The translations under genes were made by a program, and so were the position numbers. Shown in pieces: positions 12,754 through 26,142 of a stretch of DNA of 44,571 nt. A model generated the notes under the pieces. The model was given only the letters and a program-made list of their open reading frames with translations, was not told the origin of the DNA and ran no database searches. Positions within the stretch are counted from its first letter, which is position 1, and each line of letters begins with the position of its first letter. This stretch comes from a virus (lineage: Duplodnaviria; Caudoviricetes): IMG/VR virus record IMGVR_UViG_3300010358_000001, positions 1 through 44,571 of that record. The stretch is one strand, 5' to 3'.

Positions 12754-13218
12754 TTACACGTTTTCGCCGCGATTCCGCTGCTTGTCTCTGCTCATCCTCA
12801 AGGCGACTCCGCGTGGCGGAAGCGTCTTCCGCGGGCGCAAAACACGAGGGAGCATATCCCCAGCGACTTCGAAATACCCGGCTTCGGCGTCGCGCGTATG
12901 CCGTTCCTCCAGCAGCTTGTTCGCCCTCACTACTTCCGCTGCGACCGTCCACCCCAGCCCCTCCTTGCGTTTCAGGTCGTCGACGATCGCCCACCCCAGC
13001 TCCCGAGGTGAGCCGTCTGCCTCTCGCCAGTCTGTGACCAGCAGCGGGTACTGATCACCGCGCGAGTATTTCACAGTCCAGAACACCCCCGAGGTGGGGC
13101 TGAATTCGGGATCCAGGAACAGCTCGGGGTCGAGGCGCTTCAGCGCCTTGTCGATCGTGTCCTTCTCCGGACCGTGGCTGACGAGGGTGAAGCCCCCGTA
13201 CTGCTCAACGCGGAGCAC
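12754..13218 (-). CDS. Hypothetical protein (head module)
   Basis: 154-aa ORF in the operon. Confidence 0.6.
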   Translation of the reverse strand: MLRVEQYGGFTLVSHGPEKDTIDKALKRLDPELFLDPEFSPTSGVFWTVKYSRGDQYPLLVTDWREADGSPRELGWAIVDDLKRKEGLGWTVAAEVVRANKLLEERHTRDAEAGYFEVAGDMLPRVLRPRKTLPPRGVALRMSRDKQRNRGENV

Positions 13219-13411
13219 TGTAGACGCCCCGCTTCTTCAGCCTCTGCTTGAGCTTCCGCTTCGACGGAGCCCTCGACCCGTTCGACGTGGCAACCCCTTC
13301 GTGCACGTAGCGGGGCAGCGGGCCCTTGTTGTCGAAGTGGTGCTGCTTGGCGAACGCCTTGCCGAACTTGGCGAAGATGAACGCTCTCTGCGCTTGGCTG
13401 ACGGCGGGCAT
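13205..13411 (-). CDS. Small basic hypothetical protein
   Basis: MPAVSQAQRAF...LP..V pattern typical of small phage head-region proteins. Confidence 0.6.
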   Translation of the reverse strand: MPAVSQAQRAFIFAKFGKAFAKQHHFDNKGPLPRYVHEGVATSNGSRAPSKRKLKQRLKKRGVYSAPR

Positions 13412-15518: not shown

Positions 15519-16034
15519 CTATCGCAAGAGATTCTGTGCGTTACGCTGCACCATCGCGGGCAGCACGTAGCGCAGGTAGTAGCGCGGGTCCTGGTACCCG
15601 GCCGCGCGCGAGGCGTCGGCGAACCGGCCGCTCACGCCGCGATACCCGGCGGCGAGGTTGGGGTTCTGGTTCGCCGCGCGGATCTGCGCCTGCAGCTCCG
15701 GCGGCAGCGCGGAGATCACCGCCATCATCTGGTTCAGTCGCATCCGTGCATAACGCATCGCTGCATTACGCGCCGCGTTCTGCATGGCCGCGTCGGGGAT
15801 GTTGGAGATCAGCCCCTGCGGCGGCTTGCGATACGCCCCCAGCGTGGGTTGCGTGCCCTGGTACACGACAGGAGGGCGACCGTACCCTCCTGGCACCGGC
15901 TGGGCGGGAGGGGGAGGTGCCGCTGTGGGCGGTGGAGGGACGGCCAGCCCATAGGCCCCCAGCGGGGGCACCATGCCGCCACGTCTGCGCTGGCGCACCG
16001 GGTGCGCGGGCGCGTACGGATCGACCATCTGCAC
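15519..16034 (-). CDS. Pro/Arg-rich hypothetical protein
   Basis: 171-aa ORF coupled to its neighbours. Confidence 0.55.
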   Translation of the reverse strand: MQMVDPYAPAHPVRQRRRGGMVPPLGAYGLAVPPPPTAAPPPPAQPVPGGYGRPPVVYQGTQPTLGAYRKPPQGLISNIPDAAMQNAARNAAMRYARMRLNQMMAVISALPPELQAQIRAANQNPNLAAGYRGVSGRFADASRAAGYQDPRYYLRYVLPAMVQRNAQNLLR

Positions 16035-16297
16035 TACTTACCTCCGGCGGCTTTGCCCGCGGCTTCGTACGTGTCGATTCCGAAGCGCTTCGCGGCGGCG
16101 TAGATGGCCGACCGCACCTTCGACAGGTTGCCCGACGAATAGCGTGACGCGTTGCTGCCCTTGTTGATGTAGGAGAGAGCGGCACGCACGTGCGCCTCGG
16201 TGTCGATCGGGTAGCGCTTCTTGCCGTCCGCCTGATACCCGGGGTCGGCGTAGCGCACGTTCCCGTACGGCGCCTTAGGAGTGGCAGTGGCGGCCAC
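16034..16297 (-). CDS. Small head-module protein (DUF6582-like)
   Basis: YADPGYQADGKKRYPIDTEAHVRAALSYIN motif, recognised from actinophage head proteins; start uncertain. Confidence 0.65.
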   Translation of the reverse strand: MAATATPKAPYGNVRYADPGYQADGKKRYPIDTEAHVRAALSYINKGSNASRYSSGNLSKVRSAIYAAAKRFGIDTYEAAGKAAGGK

Positions 16298-16331
16298 GGC
16301 TGAATCGTGAATTAGCGGTCGGACAGCACGG

Positions 16332-16652
16332 CTAGTTGTCCACGAATCCGCGCACCCAGCCCTGCACGCCACCGCCCGTGGTGACCAGGCCGAGCGACTG
16401 CCCCGCCGTGTTCGTGCTCAGGATCGGTGTGTTGCCGTCCGGAGAGGTGACCACGAAGCCGGTGTTGGCAGCCAGCGGGATCGGTCCCGTGAGGTCGGTG
16501 CCGCCCTCCTGGAACTTCACGGTCCCGGCGGTGCCCATCACCAACACGATGGTGGTCACGTACACCTTCGACCCGGCGGCCCCGGCGAACATCGTGAGCG
16601 AGCCCGCCCCGCCCTGCGCGATCGAGACCTGCGGTGTGGTTCTTCCAATCAT
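16332..16652 (-). CDS. Small beta-rich putative structural protein
   Basis: 106 aa, Gly/Thr/Val-rich; coupled to the upstream gene. Confidence 0.55.
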   Translation of the reverse strand: MIGRTTPQVSIAQGGAGSLTMFAGAAGSKVYVTTIVLVMGTAGTVKFQEGGTDLTGPIPLAANTGFVVTSPDGNTPILSTNTAGQSLGLVTTGGGVQGWVRGFVDN

Positions 16653-17341
16653 CAGCCCACTCCTGTCAGCATTCGCACCCCCGTCGAGGCAGGGATGAGT
16701 CCGGTGTTGTAATGCGCTTGCACTCTTGCCTGAGTAAGCGCCGTAGGGTAGATCGCCACCTCGTCCATGAGCACACTGGTGACAGGATTAGCTCCATTAT
16801 CATTTCCAAGAGCAAGCCAATACGCCGTGTTCGTACATGTCGAGTTTGTAACTGTTCCCGTAACATCCACTCCGTCTACATAGACCTTGACTGCCGCTCC
16901 ATTTTTTGTCACCACACAGTGGTGGACATTTTGATCAATGGTGATCGTGGATGCTGCAAGAACCGCTGTTGATGCCCGAACGGCACACAGGTTGTTGTTC
17001 TGGAGGTACATCCCGTATCCACCATTGGGTTTGCTCACAAGATATTGGGCTTGGGTGGCCTGGTCACCTCGTTTGATCCACGCCTCAATTGACCATATGT
17101 CTCCAAGGTCGGTCGTGGCGCTTGTTCCACCCATTCCTGCCGCAGAGGTTGGACTCACTTGCAGAGATCCATCGGGGTTACCCGGCACCAAACTTGGTTG
17201 CGCCCTGACTGGGCTCGTTCCTGCTGCCGACATGTTGTTTCCGTGGCCGGTTAGGTCGGGGAAATTTCCAACAGCTTCTCCAAGATGCCAGAACGCAGCA
17301 GGCGAATCCGCTAGCACCGCTGTCTCGTACGCGGTTGCCAC
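16652..17341 (-). CDS. LamG / concanavalin-A-like domain protein
   Basis: Y..AVLADSP.AFW.LGE, WSIEAWIK, HH.VVT..G..VKVYVDG, MDEVAIY..ALT...V.AHY. Confidence 0.85.
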   Translation of the reverse strand: MATAYETAVLADSPAAFWHLGEAVGNFPDLTGHGNNMSAAGTSPVRAQPSLVPGNPDGSLQVSPTSAAGMGGTSATTDLGDIWSIEAWIKRGDQATQAQYLVSKPNGGYGMYLQNNNLCAVRASTAVLAASTITIDQNVHHCVVTKNGAAVKVYVDGVDVTGTVTNSTCTNTAYWLALGNDNGANPVTSVLMDEVAIYPTALTQARVQAHYNTGLIPASTGVRMLTGVG

Positions 17342-19419
17342 TAGGGCATTCCCGCCTGCACGTTGCCGGGCAGCGGTGACAGGCGATTCACGTACGCGGG
17401 GTTGGACAGGCCACCGCCGTTCGGCGGCGTGGGGGACCCAGGCGGCTGCCCGCCGAGAGCGCCCAGCGGGCCCTGCATGTTGGGCGATGCGGCCGCAGAC
17501 GCCGCCGCCTGAGCTTGCTCCTGCTCGTGTTCTTGGATGTGCTGGGTGAGCAGCTGCACGAAGGCGTCCATGCCGGGCACCAGCTGCGCGGCGGCGAGCG
17601 CGGAGTCGTGGATCGCGATGTGCACGCTGGCGTCGTCGGAGGGATGCGTCTGCACCGGCACCCCGCGCGCCATCAGCATGTTCTCGTTCTCCGCCAGGCG
17701 GCCCTGCACGTCGGATGGGGAGTCCGGGATCGGCAGTGCCTTGCCCGCGGCCAGCGAGTCGTACAGCCACTTCAGCTCCAGCGGCTGCGAGCTGGACACG
17801 CCGCGGTCGAAGAGATCGAAGATCTTCTGCACCTCGGCCGCCTGGTTCTTGGGAACCGGGGCGCCGGTGCCGACCTCGACGAGGATCGACGCGGGCAGGT
17901 CGTTGCTGTTGAACACGAACGCCTCGACAAGGTGGTTCTGCCCGGCCAGCTGGATCTGCTTGTTGGGCGGCCAGTACTGGCGGATGTCCTCCAGGGTGAG
18001 CTTCACGAGGCTGGCGATCTCGGAGCGGATCGCCTTCAGGATGGGGCCCACGCGGCGGTCGTCCTGCTCGGCGAGGAGCGCCATCGCGGAGTACGCGCTG
18101 ACGCCGCCCGGCGTGGTTCCCAGCGACACCTCGCCGGTGCCTGCCACCTTGTCCATGTCGAGGTCGTGCATCTCCACGTCCTCTTTGATCCACGGACCGA
18201 CGCCGGTGCCCTGCGTCTCCTGCGGGTAGTCGTGGCCCTGCCGGACGTTGATGATCTCCATCACCTTGCCCTCCGGCATGGAGGCGATCTCCAGCGAGCC
18301 GGGGCGGGCGTAGATGCGGCCCAGGCCGCCGCGGTCCTTCATCTCGATGTACTGCGAGCGGGAGCGGTTGCGTTCGCGTTGCGGCCCGAGCAGGGGCTCC
18401 ACGACGCCGACCGCCCAGAAGCGGTTGGGGATGCGGTGGTACTTGAAGAAGCGCACGCCGTGTGTCCAGCAGCCGTCGACGACGTAGGGCAGCCTGTCCT
18501 GGGAGTTCAGCAGCTGCTCCTGCGTCCACCACACGGTGCGTCCCTGGGGGAACTGCTGGGTGGGCATCTGGTAGCCGGTGGAGACCAGCGTCTGCCCCTT
18601 CAGCTTGATCGGGTTGCCCTCGCTGTCGGTGCCACCCACCGCCTGCTGGTCGGTGGACACCATGCTCTGCGCGGGCACCCGCTTGCCGAACATATCGAGC
18701 ACCTTGTTCACGTCCACGGGGCGGTCCAGGATCAGCCACGGGAAGTTGCGCTCGTTCTCGATCCCCGGCGGCGGCACCACGTTGAACGGGGACAGTGGCT
18801 CCCAGCACAGCTTCCCCGAGTAGCCGGGCTGCATCTGCGCCTGCGTCCCGTTCTGCACCGCCTGGGACACCTGATCGTACGCCTGCGGGCCCTGCATCAT
18901 CTGCCCGTTCTGGTCCATCGGCTGCATCCCCATGTACGAGCCCTGCGTGGGGTCGAAGCGGCACTGGATGCCCGACGTGCCGTACGCGCACATCTTGAGC
19001 AGCGTCTCGAAGATGCGGTCCTCGGCCTCCAGCTCCTCGGTCCAGCAGTACTCCACCGCGCGGTTGGCCTGCGAGGCGAACTCGATGGAGCGGATGTCGT
19101 CCTCGCGGAAGAACAGCTGGGGGCGGAAGTCGTCAGTGGCGAGCTTGCCCGCGATCGTCCAGTAGTACTGGGTGATCACGTTCACCACGTAGCGCTCGCG
19201 GTTCGCCGGGTTGGCGAGGTTCATCACCCGCTGCGTGCGCTTGTCCCAGCCCACCCACTGCTTGTTGGCGAGGTAGGAGCGGCACAGCTGCCAGTCCGCC
19301 TCGTAGCGTTTGCGGTCCTGCAGTCCCTGCTTGCGGCGGTCCAGCCAGATCTGCAGCGCGGGGTCGACGTTGCTCTGCGAGACAACCGCGTCGGGGTTGC
19401 GGTAGGGGACGACGCTCAC
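17341..19419 (-). CDS. Portal protein
   Basis: 692 aa downstream of terL; N.I, PLSPFNV..PP, FW..G.VE.L..PQ...N..RS motifs of podovirus-type portals. Confidence 0.85.
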   Translation of the reverse strand: MSVVPYRNPDAVVSQSNVDPALQIWLDRRKQGLQDRKRYEADWQLCRSYLANKQWVGWDKRTQRVMNLANPANRERYVVNVITQYYWTIAGKLATDDFRPQLFFREDDIRSIEFASQANRAVEYCWTEELEAEDRIFETLLKMCAYGTSGIQCRFDPTQGSYMGMQPMDQNGQMMQGPQAYDQVSQAVQNGTQAQMQPGYSGKLCWEPLSPFNVVPPPGIENERNFPWLILDRPVDVNKVLDMFGKRVPAQSMVSTDQQAVGGTDSEGNPIKLKGQTLVSTGYQMPTQQFPQGRTVWWTQEQLLNSQDRLPYVVDGCWTHGVRFFKYHRIPNRFWAVGVVEPLLGPQRERNRSRSQYIEMKDRGGLGRIYARPGSLEIASMPEGKVMEIINVRQGHDYPQETQGTGVGPWIKEDVEMHDLDMDKVAGTGEVSLGTTPGGVSAYSAMALLAEQDDRRVGPILKAIRSEIASLVKLTLEDIRQYWPPNKQIQLAGQNHLVEAFVFNSNDLPASILVEVGTGAPVPKNQAAEVQKIFDLFDRGVSSSQPLELKWLYDSLAAGKALPIPDSPSDVQGRLAENENMLMARGVPVQTHPSDDASVHIAIHDSALAAAQLVPGMDAFVQLLTQHIQEHEQEQAQAAASAAASPNMQGPLGALGGQPPGSPTPPNGGGLSNPAYVNRLSPLPGNVQAGMP

Positions 19420-19634
19420 CCGAACGCCCCGTCGTCAGGGAACGCCTCGTCGGCCATCGTCAGCCGCTCGTCGGGCGTCCGGGTGACCATCGGCTCAGGC
19501 ATCGGCGGCGGCGTCCACGGGTTGCCCGCGAGCAGCATGATGCGGTCGAGCAGCGTCTTGCGCTCGGCCTCCCACGCCTGGCGCTCGCGCTCGTGCTCGC
19601 GAACAGCCCGCTCGTACGCGCGCCGGTAGAACAC
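19416..19634 (-). CDS. Hypothetical protein
   Basis: 72-aa ORF coupled to the portal start. Confidence 0.55.
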   Translation of the reverse strand: MFYRRAYERAVREHERERQAWEAERKTLLDRIMLLAGNPWTPPPMPEPMVTRTPDERLTMADEAFPDDGAFG

Positions 19635-19937
19635 CTACTTCGTCTCCTCCGACGCGGCCTCCTCGGGCGGCGGCACTTCCTCTTCACCGAGGAAGTCCTC
19701 GGCGGGCAGCGGCCGTCCTGCTTGCAGGCTGTCGTGCAGCCACTCCAGCGGCATCGGGCGCACCGCGTTCAGCGAGTTCTCGAAGATCGTCAGGATGTCG
19801 TGCACGGACGAGGCGAGCGCGGAGTCGATGTACGTGTACTTGCCGTCGTCGTAGATGTGGTCGTTGCCGTTGGCCTTCTCGTCGCCGTTGGCCTTCTCTT
19901 CCTTGTCGGCTTTCTTCGCCTTCGCGGCGGGCATCAC
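19635..19937 (-). CDS. Small acidic protein containing a copy of a portal segment
   Basis: 16/40 ungapped identity to portal residues encoded at 17722-17841. Confidence 0.65.
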   Translation of the reverse strand: MMPAAKAKKADKEEKANGDEKANGNDHIYDDGKYTYIDSALASSVHDILTIFENSLNAVRPMPLEWLHDSLQAGRPLPAEDFLGEEEVPPPEEAASEETK

Positions 19938-20239
19938 GGCCTCCTCAGATAGGTGCTCTGCTTGAGCATTCGATGGTGGTATTCGCGCAGGGCGGGAGGA
20001 TCCATCTGAACGGGGCGCCTCCCCGCTGTGATCCCGATGGCTGTCGAGTCCATGTCACCGCGCCCTGCGCGAATCCTGTTTGAGAGCGACGCCTGCTGGT
20101 TCTGCGAAGCCTGTTTGCGGGTCTCGGGGGCGGTGCGCAGCGACCTGTTGCGGGCGGCCGACTGCATCGGCCCCGTGCTCGGAGGAGCACCGGCGCGAGC
20201 AGCTTTGCGGGCGGCCTTTCCCTGGGACTCATTCAGCAC
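19934..20239 (-). CDS. Basic hypothetical protein
   Basis: 101 aa; overlapping start and stop with neighbours. Confidence 0.5.
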   Translation of the reverse strand: MLNESQGKAARKAARAGAPPSTGPMQSAARNRSLRTAPETRKQASQNQQASLSNRIRAGRGDMDSTAIGITAGRRPVQMDPPALREYHHRMLKQSTYLRRP

Positions 20240-20630
20240 TCTTGCGTGGCCTCCCCGGCTTCGCCTTCAGCTCGGCGTCAGCCTTCACCGTTTCCCCCAA
20301 CCACACTTTGAAATCTTCCCGGCTGACGACCTTGTTGTCGCGCGCATCGGCGAGTTCGTCTTCCAGGATCTGCACGCGGAACAGCAGTTCGCCGCGCTCG
20401 TCGTGGAGCTTGCGCGCCTCCTCAGGGACGATGCAGCCGATCAGGTGGGCCATCTGGGTGACGCACGAGGAGCAGATGTAGACGTGCCCGGTGAAGATCT
20501 CCGCGCCGTGCGCGGTGTTGATCGTCACCTCTTCGATCCTGGTGTCGATGAACGGCCCCGTGTCGGACTTGCACGCCATGCACCACGTCGGCGAGTACGT
20601 CGCGTGCTGCACCAGGTTCAGGTCACCCAT
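20229..20630 (-). CDS. Hypothetical zinc-binding protein
   Basis: CMAC...CSSC plus a coiled coil; directly after terL. Confidence 0.6.
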   Translation of the reverse strand: MGDLNLVQHATYSPTWCMACKSDTGPFIDTRIEEVTINTAHGAEIFTGHVYICSSCVTQMAHLIGCIVPEEARKLHDERGELLFRVQILEDELADARDNKVVSREDFKVWLGETVKADAELKAKPGRPRKSAE

Positions 20631-22061
20631 TCAGCCTCCCATGTACAGGGCTTGCGCGGCCCGTCCCCGGGCTCGTTCGATGAGCCGCTCAGCGTAAACC
20701 TCGCGTAGGTCGTCGGGCCCTGGATCCTCCGGCTCGTGCGGCGTCGGCGGTCGCGACATCACCGCGTAGCGCAGCGCATCGAGGGCGTGGTCGTTGCGTT
20801 TGATGATGTCGTCGGTATCGTCTTTCAACTTCGCGGAGGGCAGCTCGCGGATCAGGTTGCGGCACGTGTTGAAGATGCGCAGCTGCGGCTTGCCGTCGAT
20901 CATCGTGATCAGCATGTCGTCCAGCCGCGCCCACCCTCCCAGCCGTTCGTTCTGAGCTTTCGCGCAGAAGATGCCGCGGTCGGACAGCTCCATCGCCACC
21001 GACTCGTACGTCCCGTGGTGCGCCCAGCACGACGGATCCAGCCACGACACGGAAGGAGCGAGGTTGTGAAGCTCGCGTATCTCCTTGATTTTGCGGGAAT
21101 GCCAGCCGACCCCGTGCTCGGACTCGTAATGCTCGGCGACTACGAACCAATGTCCCTCTGGGCCAATGGCGATCCACAGGCAGCAGAAGGGGTTTTGGTA
21201 TCCGTAATCGATGCCCTCCATAATCTCCCACCAGCTGGGGATCGGGAACGGCTCCGTGACGTGAATGTCCTGATCAAACGCTTTGAAGCGTTTGCCGCCG
21301 AACGCACCCCACTGTCCGAGGATGAAACGCTTGTAGTAATCCGGGTTCGATTTTTCGGTCCGGATACGCGAGGAGAAATACTTGGGGTCTAGGTTCTTCT
21401 GATTGTCCCAGAGGGTCACAGAAATGCGCCGACACCAGGGTTTCTTTGTCTCCTCGTTGACGAAGCGGCGGTGCACCCAGTGGTCCTCAGGGCCCGGGTT
21501 TGCAGCGAGAAGCATCTTGCCCGGGCCCCGAGGGTCTGAGAGACGCCCCAGCAGCTCCTCGTACAGCTGGGCGTCTGCTTCCTCGTCGAGTTCTTCGACC
21601 TGATCGATGAAGGCCGCGTTCAGCGACAGGTTGCGCAGCTTGGCCTTCGCGTCGTCGCGATTCTCCAGGGAACGAAAGAGGATCTCCGCGCCGTTGCGTA
21701 GGTAGATCGTCTCGTCGGAGGCGCGGTACATCTTGACCAATTCCGGTGGGCAGGTGGGCGGCAGATCGCCTTCCCCGCGGAGGAAGACCGCCTGAGTGGA
21801 GTCCCTAAGCTCCCGGTACGTCTTCCGGGCGATCAGATACCGCCCACCATGTGTCCATGCCCAGGCGAGCAGCTTCTTGCACGCCGCCTGCGTCTTGCCG
21901 CCGCGGATCGAGCCGTCGAACAGGATCTCTTCGACGTCGGGATCGTCGCACGCCTGGAAGAACTCGCTCTGGATCGGGGTCGGGCGGAAACCGTCCTCGA
22001 CGCGGAGCGTGTTGCCCTTGCGAGAGACCTTCGTTACGCGGGTTTCGGTGTGCGCCGCCAC
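20631..22061 (-). CDS. terL: Terminase large subunit
   Basis: Walker A GSIRGGKT, Walker B FIDQVEE, AANP, nuclease GIDYG..NP and DHALDALRY. Confidence 0.95.
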   Translation of the reverse strand: MAAHTETRVTKVSRKGNTLRVEDGFRPTPIQSEFFQACDDPDVEEILFDGSIRGGKTQAACKKLLAWAWTHGGRYLIARKTYRELRDSTQAVFLRGEGDLPPTCPPELVKMYRASDETIYLRNGAEILFRSLENRDDAKAKLRNLSLNAAFIDQVEELDEEADAQLYEELLGRLSDPRGPGKMLLAANPGPEDHWVHRRFVNEETKKPWCRRISVTLWDNQKNLDPKYFSSRIRTEKSNPDYYKRFILGQWGAFGGKRFKAFDQDIHVTEPFPIPSWWEIMEGIDYGYQNPFCCLWIAIGPEGHWFVVAEHYESEHGVGWHSRKIKEIRELHNLAPSVSWLDPSCWAHHGTYESVAMELSDRGIFCAKAQNERLGGWARLDDMLITMIDGKPQLRIFNTCRNLIRELPSAKLKDDTDDIIKRNDHALDALRYAVMSRPPTPHEPEDPGPDDLREVYAERLIERARGRAAQALYMGG

Positions 22062-22438
22062 TGCGTCGCCGCGGTCGTCACGTACTCGATCTGGGTGACT
22101 TCCTGCTGCACCTCTTGGCGCTGCGTCGGCCTACCCCACTTGTGCTCCAGCAGCATCTTCGCGGCGGCCTGCGCGATGCGCTCGTCGTCGGACTCCAGCT
22201 GCGCCTCCAGCACCTCGATGGCGCGCGGCTCCAGGCGGGACAGCTCCTGCTCGCGCTCGGCCTTGGTGGGGAACTTGGGCGGGATCGGGCGCCGCGGTGT
22301 GGTGCGCTCGACCTCTTTGCGCTTCATCTCCTTCTTGGCGAGCCACTTGATGCGGCCTTCCTCCAGCGCCTTCAGGTGCTCGGGGGTCGGCCTGTACGTG
22401 CGCCGCTGCGGGGTCAGCTCAACCGGCTCGTCAGCCAC
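22034..22438 (-). CDS. terS: Probable terminase small subunit
   Basis: Immediately upstream of terL; AAAKMLLEHKWGRPTQ C-terminal motif. Confidence 0.6.
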   Translation of the reverse strand: MADEPVELTPQRRTYRPTPEHLKALEEGRIKWLAKKEMKRKEVERTTPRRPIPPKFPTKAEREQELSRLEPRAIEVLEAQLESDDERIAQAAAKMLLEHKWGRPTQRQEVQQEVTQIEYVTTAATQWRRTPKPA

Positions 22439-22466
22439 GGGGAGATCGTACTGCGTCGATCTGACA

Positions 22467-24824
22467 TCAGCCGCCCATGCCGCGCTTCTTGCGGGAGCGG
22501 CGCAGCTTGTTGCGGAGCTTGCGCGGGATCCGCGTGCCGGGCGTCTTCGGCGTGGTCTCGGGAAGCTGGCCCTGGCGCAGGTCGATGCCCGCGTTCTTCA
22601 TCATCTGCATGATCTCGTCGGGGCCGGGCGGCGAGATCGGGTGGGCCGCCTTCGCACCCGCCTGCTCGGTCGCCGCTTCCATCATTCCCTTGTACAGCAG
22701 CGGATCAGCTTGCTCTGGACCCATCGGGTGCTTGCCGCGGCCGAGGATCGTTTCCGGCGCCCCGATCTGCATCGGCTTGTTGCGGCCGCCAGGCTTGATG
22801 CGCGCCTGCGGCTCGATCTGCTTGCTGATCGCGCGCCACACGCCACGCACGTTAGGGGCGATGTCGAAGGGACCGAACCCGGGAGCGTCGGGCAGCGGCC
22901 CCTGGTAGCCGAAGCGAGGGCTTTTGCCGGGGTATCCGGCGCCGGTCTGCCCCTGGCGGAGGCGCTGCTGGAACGTCTGTTTGGAGCGCAGCGTCTCGGC
23001 GGGGATCTCGGTGCCCAGACCGCGCTCCTTGGCGACCATCCACATGCGGTTGACGTTGGTCTGGATCGCCTCCATCGCCCCCTCCGGCGACCATCCGGCC
23101 TGCCGCAGCCCGTCGTACATGCGCTTGTAGATCTGCGGCTCGTAGAACTGGGTGGCCTCCGGTGGGCGCCGCTGGTAGTAGGAGATCGGCACGTTCTGGC
23201 GGCTCATCGGGGCGAGGAACTCCTTGGGCGGGACCGGCTCGATGTTGGAATGCGGGCCGGTGCCGAGTGGCTCGCCTTTGCCCTTGCCGCCCCACGAGAT
23301 GAAGCCGGGCGGCAGCGGCTTGCGAGCGGGCCCGGGCCGGAACGCCTCGGGGCCGATCACACCGCCGGGGAAGCGCGCCTCGGGGTTCAGCTGCGGCATC
23401 TTCGCGTACTCGGGGCCGAGTGGCTGCGGGTACAAGCTGGGGTTCTGCCGTAGCTCCAACCAGGGGTCCTGGGAGCTGCCCATGCGGCGCCGCAGGTTGA
23501 GTTCCGTGTTGGCCTGCACGTTGGCGTCGCGGTGCGCTTCGAAGGACTTTCGGAACTGGCTCTCCAGCATCCCGTGGGCTTGCTTCGTCTTGCTTATGAA
23601 GCGGGAGAAGCTCTGCGGCGTGACCTTCTGGCCGGGGTACATGTCGCCGCCCAGAGCGTCCTGTAGCCGCGTCTGCTGGGTGCCGATCTGGTTCGCGAGG
23701 TCGTGCCAGAACCCCATCGTGGCCGGGTCGCCGGTGGTGGACTCCATGAAGCGGGCGTGCGTGTACAGGTGGTTGGCGGCGAGCAGGCTGTTGCGCGCCG
23801 CCGACGCGGCGTCCTTCGCGGCCTGCGGCTGGACCGCCTTGAGCAGCCCGCGAGCGTGCATTTGCCACACCGGGTCGACTCGCTCGTGCAGCGCCTGCGC
23901 CTTCAGCATGTGCTCCTCGGTGGCGCGCGCCCACTGCCCCATGCCTTCCGTGTACTGGCCGGGGGTGATGATCCCCTGCTGCAACCCCGTGGGATGCAGC
24001 CGTTGTTCGGCGGTGCGCAGCGGGTGCGTCAGCCACTGCTTGCCGACCTGCAGCGGTCCCTCCACGGAGCCCACAGCCAGATCGCGCGGCAGCAGGCCCA
24101 GCTGGATGCCGAGGTTGAGGGCGTGGCTGCCGGTGTGCGGCACACCGTGCAGGACGTCGATGCGGCGGCCGGTGGGACGCATCCCCGGAGCGGCGACGCC
24201 GTGCGGAAGGGCGGCACCGAACGCGGTGCGGCGTGGCGGAGATGGGGCGAGGCCCCCGGCGAAGCGGCGGCCGGGTGTGGCCGTCTTGTCCACCGGCTCG
24301 CTGAACCCGGCGCGGGGCAGCAGGCCGCCCAGCGCGTGCTCGAAGCTGAAGGCGAGCGGGAACTCGCGCACGGCGCGCGGCGCCGTCACGTCGCCGAGCC
24401 CGACGTCGCCGCCAGGGCCTTTCTGGCGCAGCGCAGCGAGCGGGTGCTGGGTCGCTTTGTACAAGCTGTACCCGGCCAGCCCCAGACCGGCGGGGATGCG
24501 TGTCTCGGGGAGCAGGAAGGGCGCCGCTTCGGTGCCCGCGATGAGGGTTTTGGCGATCGGCCCGGCGATGTCGGAGGTGGCTTTCGTGCGCTTGCGTAAC
24601 GCAAGGTTGTGTACGACGTCGAGAGGCGTCACCCGCGGCCCGGCGGTGGGCCTCCCGTACGTGGGGGTGGTGTACTGCCCGCCGCCGCGCGCCTGCCCGC
24701 GGGTCTGCTCGGTGACGATGGGAGTCGCTCTATTAGTTACACGCGCGCGCGCGCGAGGGCGCGCGTGTGTACCTCCGTATGTCTGTCCGCCGCCGTGCTC
24801 TCCCATCGGGGCGCGTCGTGCCAC
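22467..24824 (-). CDS. Large basic Pro/Gly/Arg-rich hypothetical protein (possible virion protein)
   Basis: 785-aa ORF; N-terminus resembles that of the 1199-aa ejection protein. Confidence 0.6.
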   Translation of the reverse strand: MARRAPMGEHGGGQTYGGTHARPRARARVTNRATPIVTEQTRGQARGGGQYTTPTYGRPTAGPRVTPLDVVHNLALRKRTKATSDIAGPIAKTLIAGTEAAPFLLPETRIPAGLGLAGYSLYKATQHPLAALRQKGPGGDVGLGDVTAPRAVREFPLAFSFEHALGGLLPRAGFSEPVDKTATPGRRFAGGLAPSPPRRTAFGAALPHGVAAPGMRPTGRRIDVLHGVPHTGSHALNLGIQLGLLPRDLAVGSVEGPLQVGKQWLTHPLRTAEQRLHPTGLQQGIITPGQYTEGMGQWARATEEHMLKAQALHERVDPVWQMHARGLLKAVQPQAAKDAASAARNSLLAANHLYTHARFMESTTGDPATMGFWHDLANQIGTQQTRLQDALGGDMYPGQKVTPQSFSRFISKTKQAHGMLESQFRKSFEAHRDANVQANTELNLRRRMGSSQDPWLELRQNPSLYPQPLGPEYAKMPQLNPEARFPGGVIGPEAFRPGPARKPLPPGFISWGGKGKGEPLGTGPHSNIEPVPPKEFLAPMSRQNVPISYYQRRPPEATQFYEPQIYKRMYDGLRQAGWSPEGAMEAIQTNVNRMWMVAKERGLGTEIPAETLRSKQTFQQRLRQGQTGAGYPGKSPRFGYQGPLPDAPGFGPFDIAPNVRGVWRAISKQIEPQARIKPGGRNKPMQIGAPETILGRGKHPMGPEQADPLLYKGMMEAATEQAGAKAAHPISPPGPDEIMQMMKNAGIDLRQGQLPETTPKTPGTRIPRKLRNKLRRSRKKRGMGG
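24734..24759 (+). repeat. 26-bp inverted repeat, copy A: TAGTTACA(CG)7AGGG
   Basis: Exact reverse complement of 30636-30661. Confidence 0.9.
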
Positions 24825-24839
24825 GGCTTCGGAGAATAG

Positions 24840-24898
24840 AGAGCCCGTCGGTCAACCTGATCCCAAAGGGAGGGAAAAACGATCAGCCGACGGGCTCT
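24840..24898 (-). ncRNA. Candidate anti-RBS stem-loop sRNA
   Basis: 12+6 bp stem; minus-strand loop GTTTTTCCCTCCCTTTGG is complementary to the recurrent CAAAGGGAGGG RBS motif; expression not shown. Confidence 0.5.
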
Positions 24899-24923
24899 GC
24901 TTCGTGAGCTAGATGCTCCGTCC

Positions 24924-25082
24924 CTATCTTAACGCCGGGTCGTGCGCGTGCATCGCCAGGTAGTAGGAGATCGCGTGGCGCACGACGATGGACAGGTTCA
25001 CTTCACGCCGCGCTGCCAGGGCTTCCAGCCGAGCCTTCGTCTGCGGGTCGATCCTCACCGTTACGCTCGTCGAGTCCGCCAT
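24924..25082 (-). CDS. Ribbon-helix-helix (CopG-like) regulator
   Basis: MADSTSVTVRIDPQTKARLEALAARREVNLSIVVRHAISYYL (52 aa, below the ORF-track cutoff); GGAGG upstream. Confidence 0.75.
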   Translation of the reverse strand: MADSTSVTVRIDPQTKARLEALAARREVNLSIVVRHAISYYLAMHAHDPALR

Positions 25083-25338
25083 CGTCATCACCTTCCTCCG
25101 TGGCGAGGCCGGGGATCATCACGTACGCCGAGCCGTGCATCATCACCGTGGCGAGGTCGTCCATCGACAGCTCGTCGAGTTGCGCGTTGTCCTGCGCGAC
25201 GATGACGCTCGCCACGTCGTCGCCGCCCTTGTCGACGGTGCCGTGCTGGGAGACCATCAGGTCCCCCAGCGCGGTGAGCAGCATGTCGTGGTCGGGGATC
25301 TTCCCCGAGTCGAGGATGTAGATGACGTACACCCTCAT
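25003..25338 (-). CDS. Hypothetical protein
   Basis: Start overlaps the upstream stop (ATGA). Confidence 0.5.
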   Translation of the reverse strand: MRVYVIYILDSGKIPDHDMLLTALGDLMVSQHGTVDKGGDDVASVIVAQDNAQLDELSMDDLATVMMHGSAYVMIPGLATEEGDDDGGLDERNGEDRPADEGSAGSPGSAA

Positions 25339-25832
25339 CGCTCCAGCTCGGCGATCGCGTTGTCGATGGCGGCCAGCACCCCCTCCTTCGTGGACAGCTC
25401 ATCGTCATTCATGCGGGCGACGGCTGCAATCACGTGCTCGTTGGAGTGCTGCTCGATGTTGTTGGCCGTGAGGATCAGCCGGGCGGCCCGCTCGATGCGC
25501 TGCGTGGCCGACTTCGTGGCGGGGAAGCCCACCTTGTACGAGGCGGCCTGCAGGGCGCCGCTCATGCACCACGCGGCGGCGTGCGGCGAGTCGGCCTCCA
25601 CAGGATTGCCGCTCTCGTCGACGGCGATCTCGTGGTGCACCCACCCCGCCTCCAGCAGAATGCGCGCCTCGCGCAGGGTCTGCAGGGTGTAGTCGGCATT
25701 CGACTTCTGGTTGGGCTGGCGGCGCGGCGGCCCCTCGCCGGGCTTGCGCCGCACGATCTTGGTGCGTGTGTCCTGCTGCCGCTCCAGGATGGAGAGCAGC
25801 CGGTCAACCGGTGTTGACGCCATTCTTCTCAC
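25335..25832 (-). CDS. DUF6197-like hypothetical protein
   Basis: L..AR.LL..GW...WC..GAL...ND....T...V....D.AI pattern. Confidence 0.6.
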   Translation of the reverse strand: MRRMASTPVDRLLSILERQQDTRTKIVRRKPGEGPPRRQPNQKSNADYTLQTLREARILLEAGWVHHEIAVDESGNPVEADSPHAAAWCMSGALQAASYKVGFPATKSATQRIERAARLILTANNIEQHSNEHVIAAVARMNDDELSTKEGVLAAIDNAIAELER

Positions 25833-26142
25833 CTCTTCGTGTCTTGATTTCGTTCACCCACTGCTTGCGCACTCCGGGGCGCTCCAGGAACGCGACCGGG
25901 TTCTTGTAGATGTCCCCGTATGTGCTGCTGAGCACGAACATCCCGTCGGCGAAGTCGCCGTACAGCTGGCCGAGCACGCAGCGGTTGCCGCACTCCATGT
26001 CCAGCTTGCGCGGGTTCACCTTGTGCGCCCACCCCGGGTACACCTCGTCGAGCATGGCCGCCTTCTCGACCACGGCGCGCTCGTTGGTGGTGGGGGTCTC
26101 CGGCATGAAGCCGGGGATCGTGGGCAGTCGGTACTTCAGCAT
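25804..26142 (-). CDS. Hypothetical protein
   Basis: LDEVYPGW...LDM.....CVLGQLYG motif; GGAGG RBS. Confidence 0.65.
   Translation of the reverse strand: MLKYRLPTIPGFMPETPTTNERAVVEKAAMLDEVYPGWAHKVNPRKLDMECGNRCVLGQLYGDFADGMFVLSSTYGDIYKNPVAFLERPGVRKQWVNEIKTRRGEKNGVNTG

What the first reader, a model, noticed from the sequence alone, without database searches (positions are those of the whole stretch)
19635..19937. Small protein carrying a copy of a portal segment (possible portal mimic)
Seen in sequence: ASSVHDILTIFENSLNAVRPMPLEWLHDSLQAGRPLPAED (19695-19814) aligns without gaps to portal AAEVQKIFDLFDRGVSSSQPLELKWLYDSLAAGKALPIPD (17722-17841), 16/40 identical. It is flanked by low-complexity charged tails and lies two genes upstream of the portal. 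Established knowledge: portals are sensed by some anti-phage NLR-like systems such as Avs4. Inference: a decoy against portal-sensing defence, or a competitor or chaperone regulating portal assembly or packaging.
Basis: partly seen in the sequence, partly recalled or inferred. Interest (0 to 1): 0.75.

Follow-up and report, generated by a model that had tools for sequence, protein, structure and literature searches.

The report
Stand-alone copy of phage portal crown
An uncultured phage and its relatives keep a small, conserved gene copied from the inner 'crown' end of their DNA-entry portal protein; it sits among the packaging genes and likely helps portal or head assembly by docking through the copied helices, but what it binds is untested.

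Summary
Residues 41-80 of a 99-aa ORF (19934-19635, minus strand) match portal residues 527-566, 16/40, far beyond shuffles. That segment is the first two helices of the portal crown, the part that faces the capsid interior. The gene is not a decaying duplicate: it belongs to an unnamed family of 22 small acidic proteins (60-160 aa). Some members also keep the third crown helix. In all 4 phages where I have DNA it lies two genes upstream of the portal with a strong ribosome site. Those 4 fall in one portal clade, and 0 of 45 loci outside it carry the gene. It has diverged together with the portal since one old duplication. It keeps the crown's hydrophobic positions (10 of 14) but not its conserved polar ones (1 of 9), and it does not track its own portal's sequence. 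That fits a repurposed crown module better than a faithful decoy. My best reading is a head-assembly accessory that docks on exposed crown surfaces (about 0.4). A self-assembling head protein (0.25) and a defence decoy (0.2) remain open. No complex could be modelled, and expression is not shown. I found no description in print.

The parts
19635..19934 (-). Small crown-paralogue gene, 99 aa, net charge -12 (window member of a 22-protein family)
   Evidence: ORF with GC3 0.92; no Pfam or PHROG family; homologues
19940..19946 (-). Ribosome-binding site GAGGAGG, 5 nt before ATG 19934; this ATG overlaps the stop of the upstream ORF (TGATG)
   Evidence: Sequence; GGAG-type sites also precede the gene in L003, L004 and L008
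19695..19814 (-). Crown-like segment, residues 41-80: helix, loop (P60), helix (E64 W65 L66), then G73 and a short linker
   Evidence: a relative folds as H19-37, H44-53, H59-79
19824..19838 (-). Family-specific Tyr/Thr motif (residues 33-37) ahead of the first helix; not portal-like
   Evidence: T[YF] found 30-38 residues before the Trp in 21 of 21 cores; no match to the portal in this register
19845..19934 (-). Charged low-complexity N-terminal tail with a near-exact 18-bp tandem duplication (19863-19898)
   Evidence: Sequence; length varies from 2 to 63 aa across the family
19638..19694 (-). Acidic C-terminal tail; the third crown helix kept by longer relatives is absent here
17341..19419 (-). 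P22-like portal, 692 aa
   Evidence: PF16510 and phrog_156; AF2 mean pLDDT 81; residues 18-520 align to P22 portal 5-523 at Z 23-27
17722..17841 (-). Source segment: portal residues 527-566, crown helices H526-542 and H549-558
   Evidence: P22 crown is residues 525-600 (PMC5290284; PMC12005531)
17668..17718 (-). Third crown helix (568-584), copied in some longer family members but not in the window's small gene
19416..19634 (-). Conserved 72-aa gene between the small gene and the portal; abuts the small gene's stop and overlaps the portal start
   Evidence: Cluster in 36 of 48 terminase-portal intervals; junctions
19934..20239 (-). Arg/Gln/Gly-rich ORF directly upstream, overlapping the small gene's start
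   Evidence: similar ORFs in the same place in L003 and L004, by eye; no family
20229..20630 (-). Conserved Cys-motif/coiled-coil gene after the terminase
   Evidence: By eye the window member of a cluster found in 36 of 48 intervals
20631..22061 (-). Terminase large subunit
   Evidence: PF04466, phrog_2

Best explanation
The gene is a conserved, free-standing paralogue of the first two helices of the phage's portal crown, placed in the packaging gene block, and it likely acts in head assembly by docking its retained hydrophobic crown face on exposed crown surfaces of portal subunits, with acidic tails that would keep the complex soluble and would delay or tune ring formation. Shown: homology, crown identity, family, fixed position, one origin, co-divergence with the portal, retention of hydrophobic positions. 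Inferred: late co-expression (from ribosome site and gene overlaps), a need for a partner to cover the hydrophobic face in two-helix members, the portal as that partner, and the effect on assembly.
For: Homology and crown identity. Family of 22 proteins of 60-160 aa, all 21 with the core net acidic. Same position in 4 of 4 phages with DNA, with overlapping or abutting stop and start codons. One change on the portal tree; 4 of 4 tested in a 99%-supported clade and 0 of 45 outside. The 21 cores are one side of a 96/86 branch against 34 portals. Small-protein and portal identities correlate over 8 pairs (Spearman 0.74, exact Mantel 3 of 40,320; 4 pairs from DNA, 4 inferred from equal source and contig length), as expected of a stably inherited morphogenesis gene. 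Portal-conserved hydrophobic, Gly and Pro positions are kept in 10 of 14 cases, and several members, the window's among them, end soon after helix 2, which would leave that face open. Portal ring formation is a regulated step in P22, where scaffold acts on portal monomers (passages of PMC12005531), and the crown is a mobile switch (passages of PMC5290284).
Against: The portal's conserved polar crown residues are mostly lost (1 of 9 kept), portal L536 became mostly Gln, and the family has its own conserved residues at four positions, so the surface that meets neighbours in the ring may not be kept. Each small protein matches its own portal no better than other portals (ranks 4, 8, 2, 8, 2, 7, 5, 2 of 8; permutation 31,236 of 40,320), whereas a cognate binder might co-vary. 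45 of 49 related loci have no such gene, and their slot holds unrelated acidic small proteins with no match to portal or terminase, so it is not needed for this portal type. Eight of the 16 in-clade portals have no linked small gene so far (no DNA held).
Confidence: 0.4

Rival explanations
1. Exapted domain: the crown hairpin became a self-associating mini-domain with its own surface. It would serve as a small acidic head or procapsid protein, or bind scaffold or ejection proteins, without binding the portal. It would be one of several interchangeable acidic proteins that fill this slot.
For: Family-specific conserved residues (T[YF] motif 21 of 21; Glu before Trp 21 of 21; Arg and Gln in helix 1). 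No tracking of the own portal. Other clades hold unrelated acidic proteins of the same build in the same interval. Tails vary from none to about 100 aa, and one carries an E3-binding domain.
Against: Four members also keep the third crown helix and following loop in register (0 of 2,000 shuffles each; scores 14-19 against own-clade portals and 4-7 against outside portals). That is more portal likeness than a freely drifting domain needs.
Confidence: 0.25
2. Decoy: made just before the portal and probably in excess, the free crown would soak up a host sensor or inhibitor that reads the portal crown fold without triggering it.
For: Portals are sensed by Avs4, Avs11 and RAZR, and Avs proteins read folds (passages). 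The gene has a strong ribosome site and would be co-timed with the portal. Earlier unchecked notes of this scan report similar mini-genes copying portal clip and capsid pieces in other phages (leads only, not support).
Against: RAZR needs a ring of about 170 A, and RelA/SpoT binding needs the intact ring. That Avs4 contacts stem, clip and wing rather than crown is recalled, not checked. The conserved polar surface is not kept, and the own portal is not tracked. Distribution is clade-wide and vertical where tested. The host is unknown, so no sensor could be tested.
Confidence: 0.2
3. Interference protein: a dominant-negative crown that would poison portal rings of competing, related phages or satellites lacking the gene.
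For: A partial subunit that keeps one interface can block polymer assembly (general principle). The copy fits outside portals as well as clade portals in the core (72.7 against 71.8 for the window protein).
Against: It lies in the phage's own packaging block and would meet its own portal first. Nothing marks it as a lysogenic or early gene.
Confidence: 0.07
4. Non-functional, decaying duplicate of part of the portal gene.
For: The window copy lacks helix 3 and is among the more divergent members; expression is not shown.
Against: 21 intact cores at 22-94% pairwise identity in the subsets compared, three invariant columns, cores better kept than tails (62/71 against 21 of 52 for P0047 and P0049), synonymous differences at most unchanged residues in two of three comparisons with the window gene (7 of 11, 6 of 8; 2 of 11 in the third), GC3 0.92, and other short members of the same type (P0059, P0063, P0066).
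Confidence: 0.02

Closest known systems
Crown domain of P22-like podovirus portals (PF16510; P22 gp1 residues 525-600; Pa223, SU10, N4, Pan3 portals)
   Same: Homologous sequence (HHalign 97%, E 1e-10, portal 506-603); the same helix-loop-helix-helix layout; the relative's model aligns weakly to the crown ranges of the Pa223 (524-597, Z 4.0, rmsd 7.0, 58 aligned, rank 5) and LME-1 portals (471-547, Z 3.4, rank 28) among 48,161 chains, below significance
   Different: Free-standing gene of 60-160 aa with no wing, stem, clip or barrel; own N-terminal motif, remodelled polar surface and acidic tails
Paralogues of virion proteins kept by phages and satellites (T4 gp24 from gp23, SaPI Ccm: recalled; SPN3US head paralogues, PMC5694885: search listing only)
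   Same: A structural gene duplicated and kept for a new role in assembly
   Different: Those are whole folds of capsid or core proteins; this is a two- or three-helix piece of the portal
Portal assembly helpers: P22 scaffolding protein (PMC12005531 passages; PMC5529062 listing) and T4 gp40 (recalled)
   Same: Proposed role: act on unassembled portal subunits
   Different: They are not portal-derived; P22 scaffold binds the wing; no sequence link was found (no PHROG hit)
Portal-sensing defences Avs4, Avs11, RAZR and their phage inhibitors
   Same: The portal is a known trigger, so a free portal piece could act as a decoy
   Different: No crown-binding sensor appears in the passages read; I found no portal-fragment decoy in print

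Membership tests
Portal crown homologue | Significant sequence homology to the portal segment | tested here: met
   the small-family profile retrieves 6 portals among 28 hits in 1.84 billion proteins
Portal crown homologue | The source segment lies right after the wing, at the position of the P22 crown | tested here: met
   Model 18-520 aligns to P22 5-523; last wing strand 513-516, helices from 526; crown 525-600
Portal crown homologue | Same helix pattern when folded from small-family sequences alone | tested here: met
   L003 member: H19-37, 6-residue loop, H44-53, H59-79, pLDDT 82-91 over residues 21-60; portal H526-542, H549-558, H568-584. The window protein itself was not folded with AF2
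Portal crown homologue | Significant structural superposition on a solved crown | tested here: inconclusive
   No Foldseek hit at E <= 0.001; VIA Z 4.0 and 3.4 on crown ranges
P22-like portal protein (PF16510, phrog_156) | Wing, stem and clip domains able to form the DNA channel | tested here: not met
   99 aa, crown helices only, no family hit; the neighbouring 692-aa gene meets it
Portal assembly chaperone or modulator | Binds portal subunits | not testable with these tools
Portal assembly chaperone or modulator | Encoded with the portal and inherited with it | tested here: met
Anti-defence decoy of a portal sensor | Binds the sensor and blocks its activation | not testable with these tools
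   Host unknown; needs an assay
Anti-defence decoy of a portal sensor | Reproduces the portal surface that the sensor reads | tested here: inconclusive
   Polar conserved positions kept 1 of 9 and own portal not tracked, but the sensed surface is not known for this portal
BRCT domain | Central beta-sheet with flanking helices and a BRCT profile match | tested here: not met
   Atlas scores 0.79-0.82 and TM under 0.5; no Pfam hit; all-helical model; only the Trp-x3-Ser helix is alike
Pseudogene | Broken frame, no conserved homologues, no selection | tested here: not met

The most novel reading that the evidence does not exclude
A phage clade has turned its portal crown into a separate trans-acting protein that binds either the portal itself, as a built-in assembly brake, or a host sensor of the crown. 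It would be the first natural portal-domain inhibitor or decoy, and the crown-side member of a wider, undescribed class of phage mini-genes made from pieces of their own virion proteins.
Probability: 0.55. Interest if true: 0.8.

Novelty: new variant of a known kind. Interest (0 to 1): 0.6.

Why it matters
Portal rings must form once, with 12 subunits, at the right time, and portals are also a main trigger of bacterial immunity. A naturally selected, soluble crown fragment is a ready reagent for both questions. It can be co-expressed with its portal to ask whether crown contacts control ring assembly, and with portal sensors to ask whether any of them read the crown. The family also shows how a new phage gene arises from one domain of an essential gene and is then kept through about 50% divergence of the portal. 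If it only proves to be a minor head protein, it is still a new, unnamed family with a traceable origin.

Tried and rejected
Single-sequence searches with the window protein found no relative: viral contigs, 5.8 billion proteins (only itself), phage records (two hits at E 1 and 7). Relatives appeared only through portal loci and profiles. The Atlas BRCT lead was rejected. P0062 and P0070 are unrelated repeat proteins and were dropped. L081 matched through its portal; L079, L080 and L082 repeat L003, L008 and the window. No prophage or host: the genome scan found no portal relative, and the nearest cultured portals are 23% identical, in Arthrobacter and Microbacterium phages. Extra viral scans gave no new small-gene locus. 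No PDB sequence match for the portal or small-family profiles. Fold searches with the small model were not significant. No RNA holder listed; runs X2 and X3 give only short, divergent pieces. No sigma-70-type promoter on the minus strand of 16000-26000, no excess of terminators, no tRNA. The idea that other slot proteins also copy structural genes was not supported: none of the 8 other profiles hit a portal or terminase at E <= 0.02. The idea that the beta-type slot protein is a known sponge protein was not supported: no PDB match, only a PGDYG-like Atlas lead (0.93, family on 15% of members), and no paper with that term. A formal dN/dS was not run: DNA is held for only four distant members and GC3 is near 0.9. 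I did not use the 4 of 4 against 0 of 45 split as a statistical test, because it reflects one origin.

Full report
Observation. The window is a complete 44,571-base virus record with direct terminal repeats, 66% G+C. On the minus strand the order is terminase large subunit (20631-22061), a 133-aa Cys-motif gene, an Arg/Gln/Gly-rich ORF, the small ORF, a 72-aa gene and a 692-aa P22-like portal. Residues 41-80 of the small ORF match portal residues 527-566 at 16/40 with no gaps; BLASTP E is 6e-9, and the alignment score of 92 was reached by 0 of 10,000 shuffles of either protein (maxima 56 and 57). DNA identity is highest at codon position 2, so the likeness is old and held at protein level. The ORF has GC3 0.92 and GAGGAGG 5 nt before ATG 19934. 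Its start overlaps the upstream stop and its stop abuts the 72-aa gene, which overlaps the portal start. Co-translation with the portal is inferred from this layout; no expression data were found.

What was copied. AF2 of the portal (42-row alignment, mean pLDDT 81) ends the wing at strand 513-516 and continues with helices 526-542, 549-558, 568-584, 597-611 and 618-643. Residues 18-520 superpose on P22 portal 5-523 at Z 23-27, and the P22 crown is residues 525-600 (passages of PMC5290284, and PMC12005531). The window copy is therefore crown helices 1 and 2. A relative folded from seven small-family sequences alone gave helices 19-37, 44-53 and 59-79 with pLDDT 82-91 over residues 21-60 (pTM 0.44), the same pattern. 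Fold searches with that model were not significant. In a search of 48,161 chains, ranks 5 and 28 were crown ranges of two portals at Z 4.0 and 3.4, which is weak support only. The window protein itself was not folded with AF2; its Atlas model is poor (pLDDT 0.46).

A family. The protein alone finds no relative. A crown profile built only from portals, run over six frames of 75 related viral loci and the window, found free copies in the window, L004 (E 3e-7), L003 (2e-4) and L008 (0.013); the next non-portal hit had E 6.7. Profiles of these gave 7 proteins and then 28 hits in 1.84 billion representatives: 5 input members, 15 new small proteins (one, P0058, starts after the core), 6 portals and 2 unrelated repeat proteins that I dropped. 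The family thus has 22 members. The 21 with the core are 60-160 aa long and all net acidic. All 21 have a T[YF] motif before helix 1, and Pro, Glu and Leu are invariant around the Trp. Of the first seven members, four continue in register through the third crown helix (0 of 2,000 shuffles each), one does not match there and two are too short. Profile against profile, the match spans portal 506-603 at 97% probability. Short members of 60-69 aa exist, so the window's two-helix form is a normal type. No member matches a Pfam family over the core.

Position and history. A small-family profile over 77 loci and the window found free copies only in the same four phages, always directly before the 72-aa-type gene and the portal. 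For the tree I kept 49 of these 78 sources; I dropped 15 without a terminase hit, 8 duplicates and 6 with short portal fragments, and added 17 portals without DNA. The four carriers fall in one clade of 16 portals with 99% support (FastTree), the label changes once, and 0 of 45 outside loci carry it. Four more small proteins share source and exact contig length with in-clade portals, and none of the 18 members without DNA shares a length with an outside portal; this pairing is an inference. Eight in-clade portals remain unlinked. The 21 cores form one side of a 96/86 branch against 34 portals, on only 36 columns. Over 8 pairs, small-core identity follows portal-body identity (Spearman 0.74, exact Mantel 3 of 40,320). 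The third-helix part scores higher against clade portals than outside ones (14-19 against 4-7). I infer one duplication near the base of this clade, then vertical inheritance while the portals diverged to about 50%.

What selection kept. Of 23 positions conserved by class in at least 80% of 34 portals, hydrophobic, Gly and Pro positions are kept in the small family in 10 of 14 cases and polar, charged or Ala positions in 1 of 9 (Fisher p 0.009). Portal E529, Q531 and K532 are lost, L536 is mostly Gln, and the family has its own residues at 525, 531, 538 and 539. No small protein tracks its own portal's crown. So the fold is kept and the surface is rebuilt. I had no coordinates to map these positions onto ring interfaces, so 'core' and 'surface' are inferred from residue type.

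How it most likely works. A two-helix hairpin cannot bury eight conserved hydrophobic residues alone, so it probably needs a partner (inference). It is placed to be made with the portal, and it descends from a domain that sits beside its neighbours in the ring (established for P22-like portals). I therefore put 0.4 on an assembly accessory that docks on exposed crown surfaces, with acidic tails keeping the complex soluble until scaffold-driven ring formation. Against this stand the rebuilt surface, the lack of co-variation with the own portal, and 45 related loci without the gene. The same interval in other clades holds unrelated acidic small proteins of similar build, none matching portal or terminase; this supports the rival that the hairpin is an exapted, self-associating module of a minor head protein (0.25). 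A decoy (0.2) is possible because Avs proteins recognise folds by direct binding and Avs11 senses portals at an unmapped site (passages of 10.64898/2026.01.04.697583). But RAZR assembles around rings of about 170 A (passages of PMC13017515), RelA/SpoT binding needs the intact ring (passages of 10.64898/2026.01.27.700999), and the Avs4 site on stem, clip and wing is only recalled. Interference with rival phages gets 0.07 and a dead duplicate 0.02; the remainder is unassigned.

Comparison with what is known. The protein is a crown homologue by sequence, position and helix pattern, but it is not a portal, not a BRCT domain and not a pseudogene. Nine full-text searches returned no stand-alone portal crown or portal-fragment decoy; I saw these as listings with abstract starts. 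I read passages of seven papers (the last two added nothing on this point), no whole text and no supplements. Three papers were not held, and most subscription journals are outside the library. Duplicated virion genes with new assembly roles are a known kind (T4 gp24, SaPI Ccm; recalled), so I rate this a new variant of a known kind. Earlier notes of this scan hold 52 findings with the words portal, mimic and decoy; of the 8 shown, most copy the portal clip or capsid pieces. They are unchecked leads; searches for crown and for this sequence returned none.

Verdict. Real, conserved, undescribed in the searches made; mechanism inferred. Interest 0.6. The host is unknown; the best-matching run is labelled soil metagenome and may be the source sample.

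Noticed in passing
L005-L007, L009, L011-L017, L019, L026 (for example L014:7422-7685): In relatives without the crown gene, the terminase-portal interval holds an acidic small protein with a short beta-type domain; weak hits to phrog_419, 1810 and 36774, Atlas lead PGDYG-like (0.93, 15% of members), no PDB match.
   Followed up: partly
L031-L035, L051-L062, L053-L058, terminase-portal intervals: Three more clade-specific acidic small-protein families with short conserved cores occupy this interval; two of them match each other weakly; none matches portal or terminase.
   Followed up: partly
window 19416-19634 and 20229-20630: Two unnamed genes, a 72-aa helical protein ending in a Pro-rich acidic tail and a Cys-motif/coiled-coil protein, recur in 36 of 48 intervals each; they look like core packaging-block genes of this phage group.
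   Followed up: partly
P0053: One family member ends in an E3-binding (peripheral subunit-binding) domain, PF02817, E 1e-9.
   Followed up: no
window 15519-16034: Homologue (E 4e-20) of a Gln/Ala-rich gene that lies between terminase and portal in L006, L007, L009 and L011-L013, but here lies downstream of the portal.
   Followed up: no
window 13205-13411: A 68-aa basic ORF resembles, by eye, a family of 55-59 aa found between terminase and portal in six other loci.
   Followed up: no
window 16034-17344: A LamG/concanavalin-like gene, a 106-aa gene and a DUF6582 gene follow the portal directly.
   Followed up: no
L081:1065-1521: Small gene before the 72-aa-type gene begins with what looks, from recall, like a Rho N-terminal-type helical motif.
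   Followed up: no
window 19863-19898: Near-exact 18-bp tandem duplication in the N-terminal tail of the small gene.
   Followed up: no
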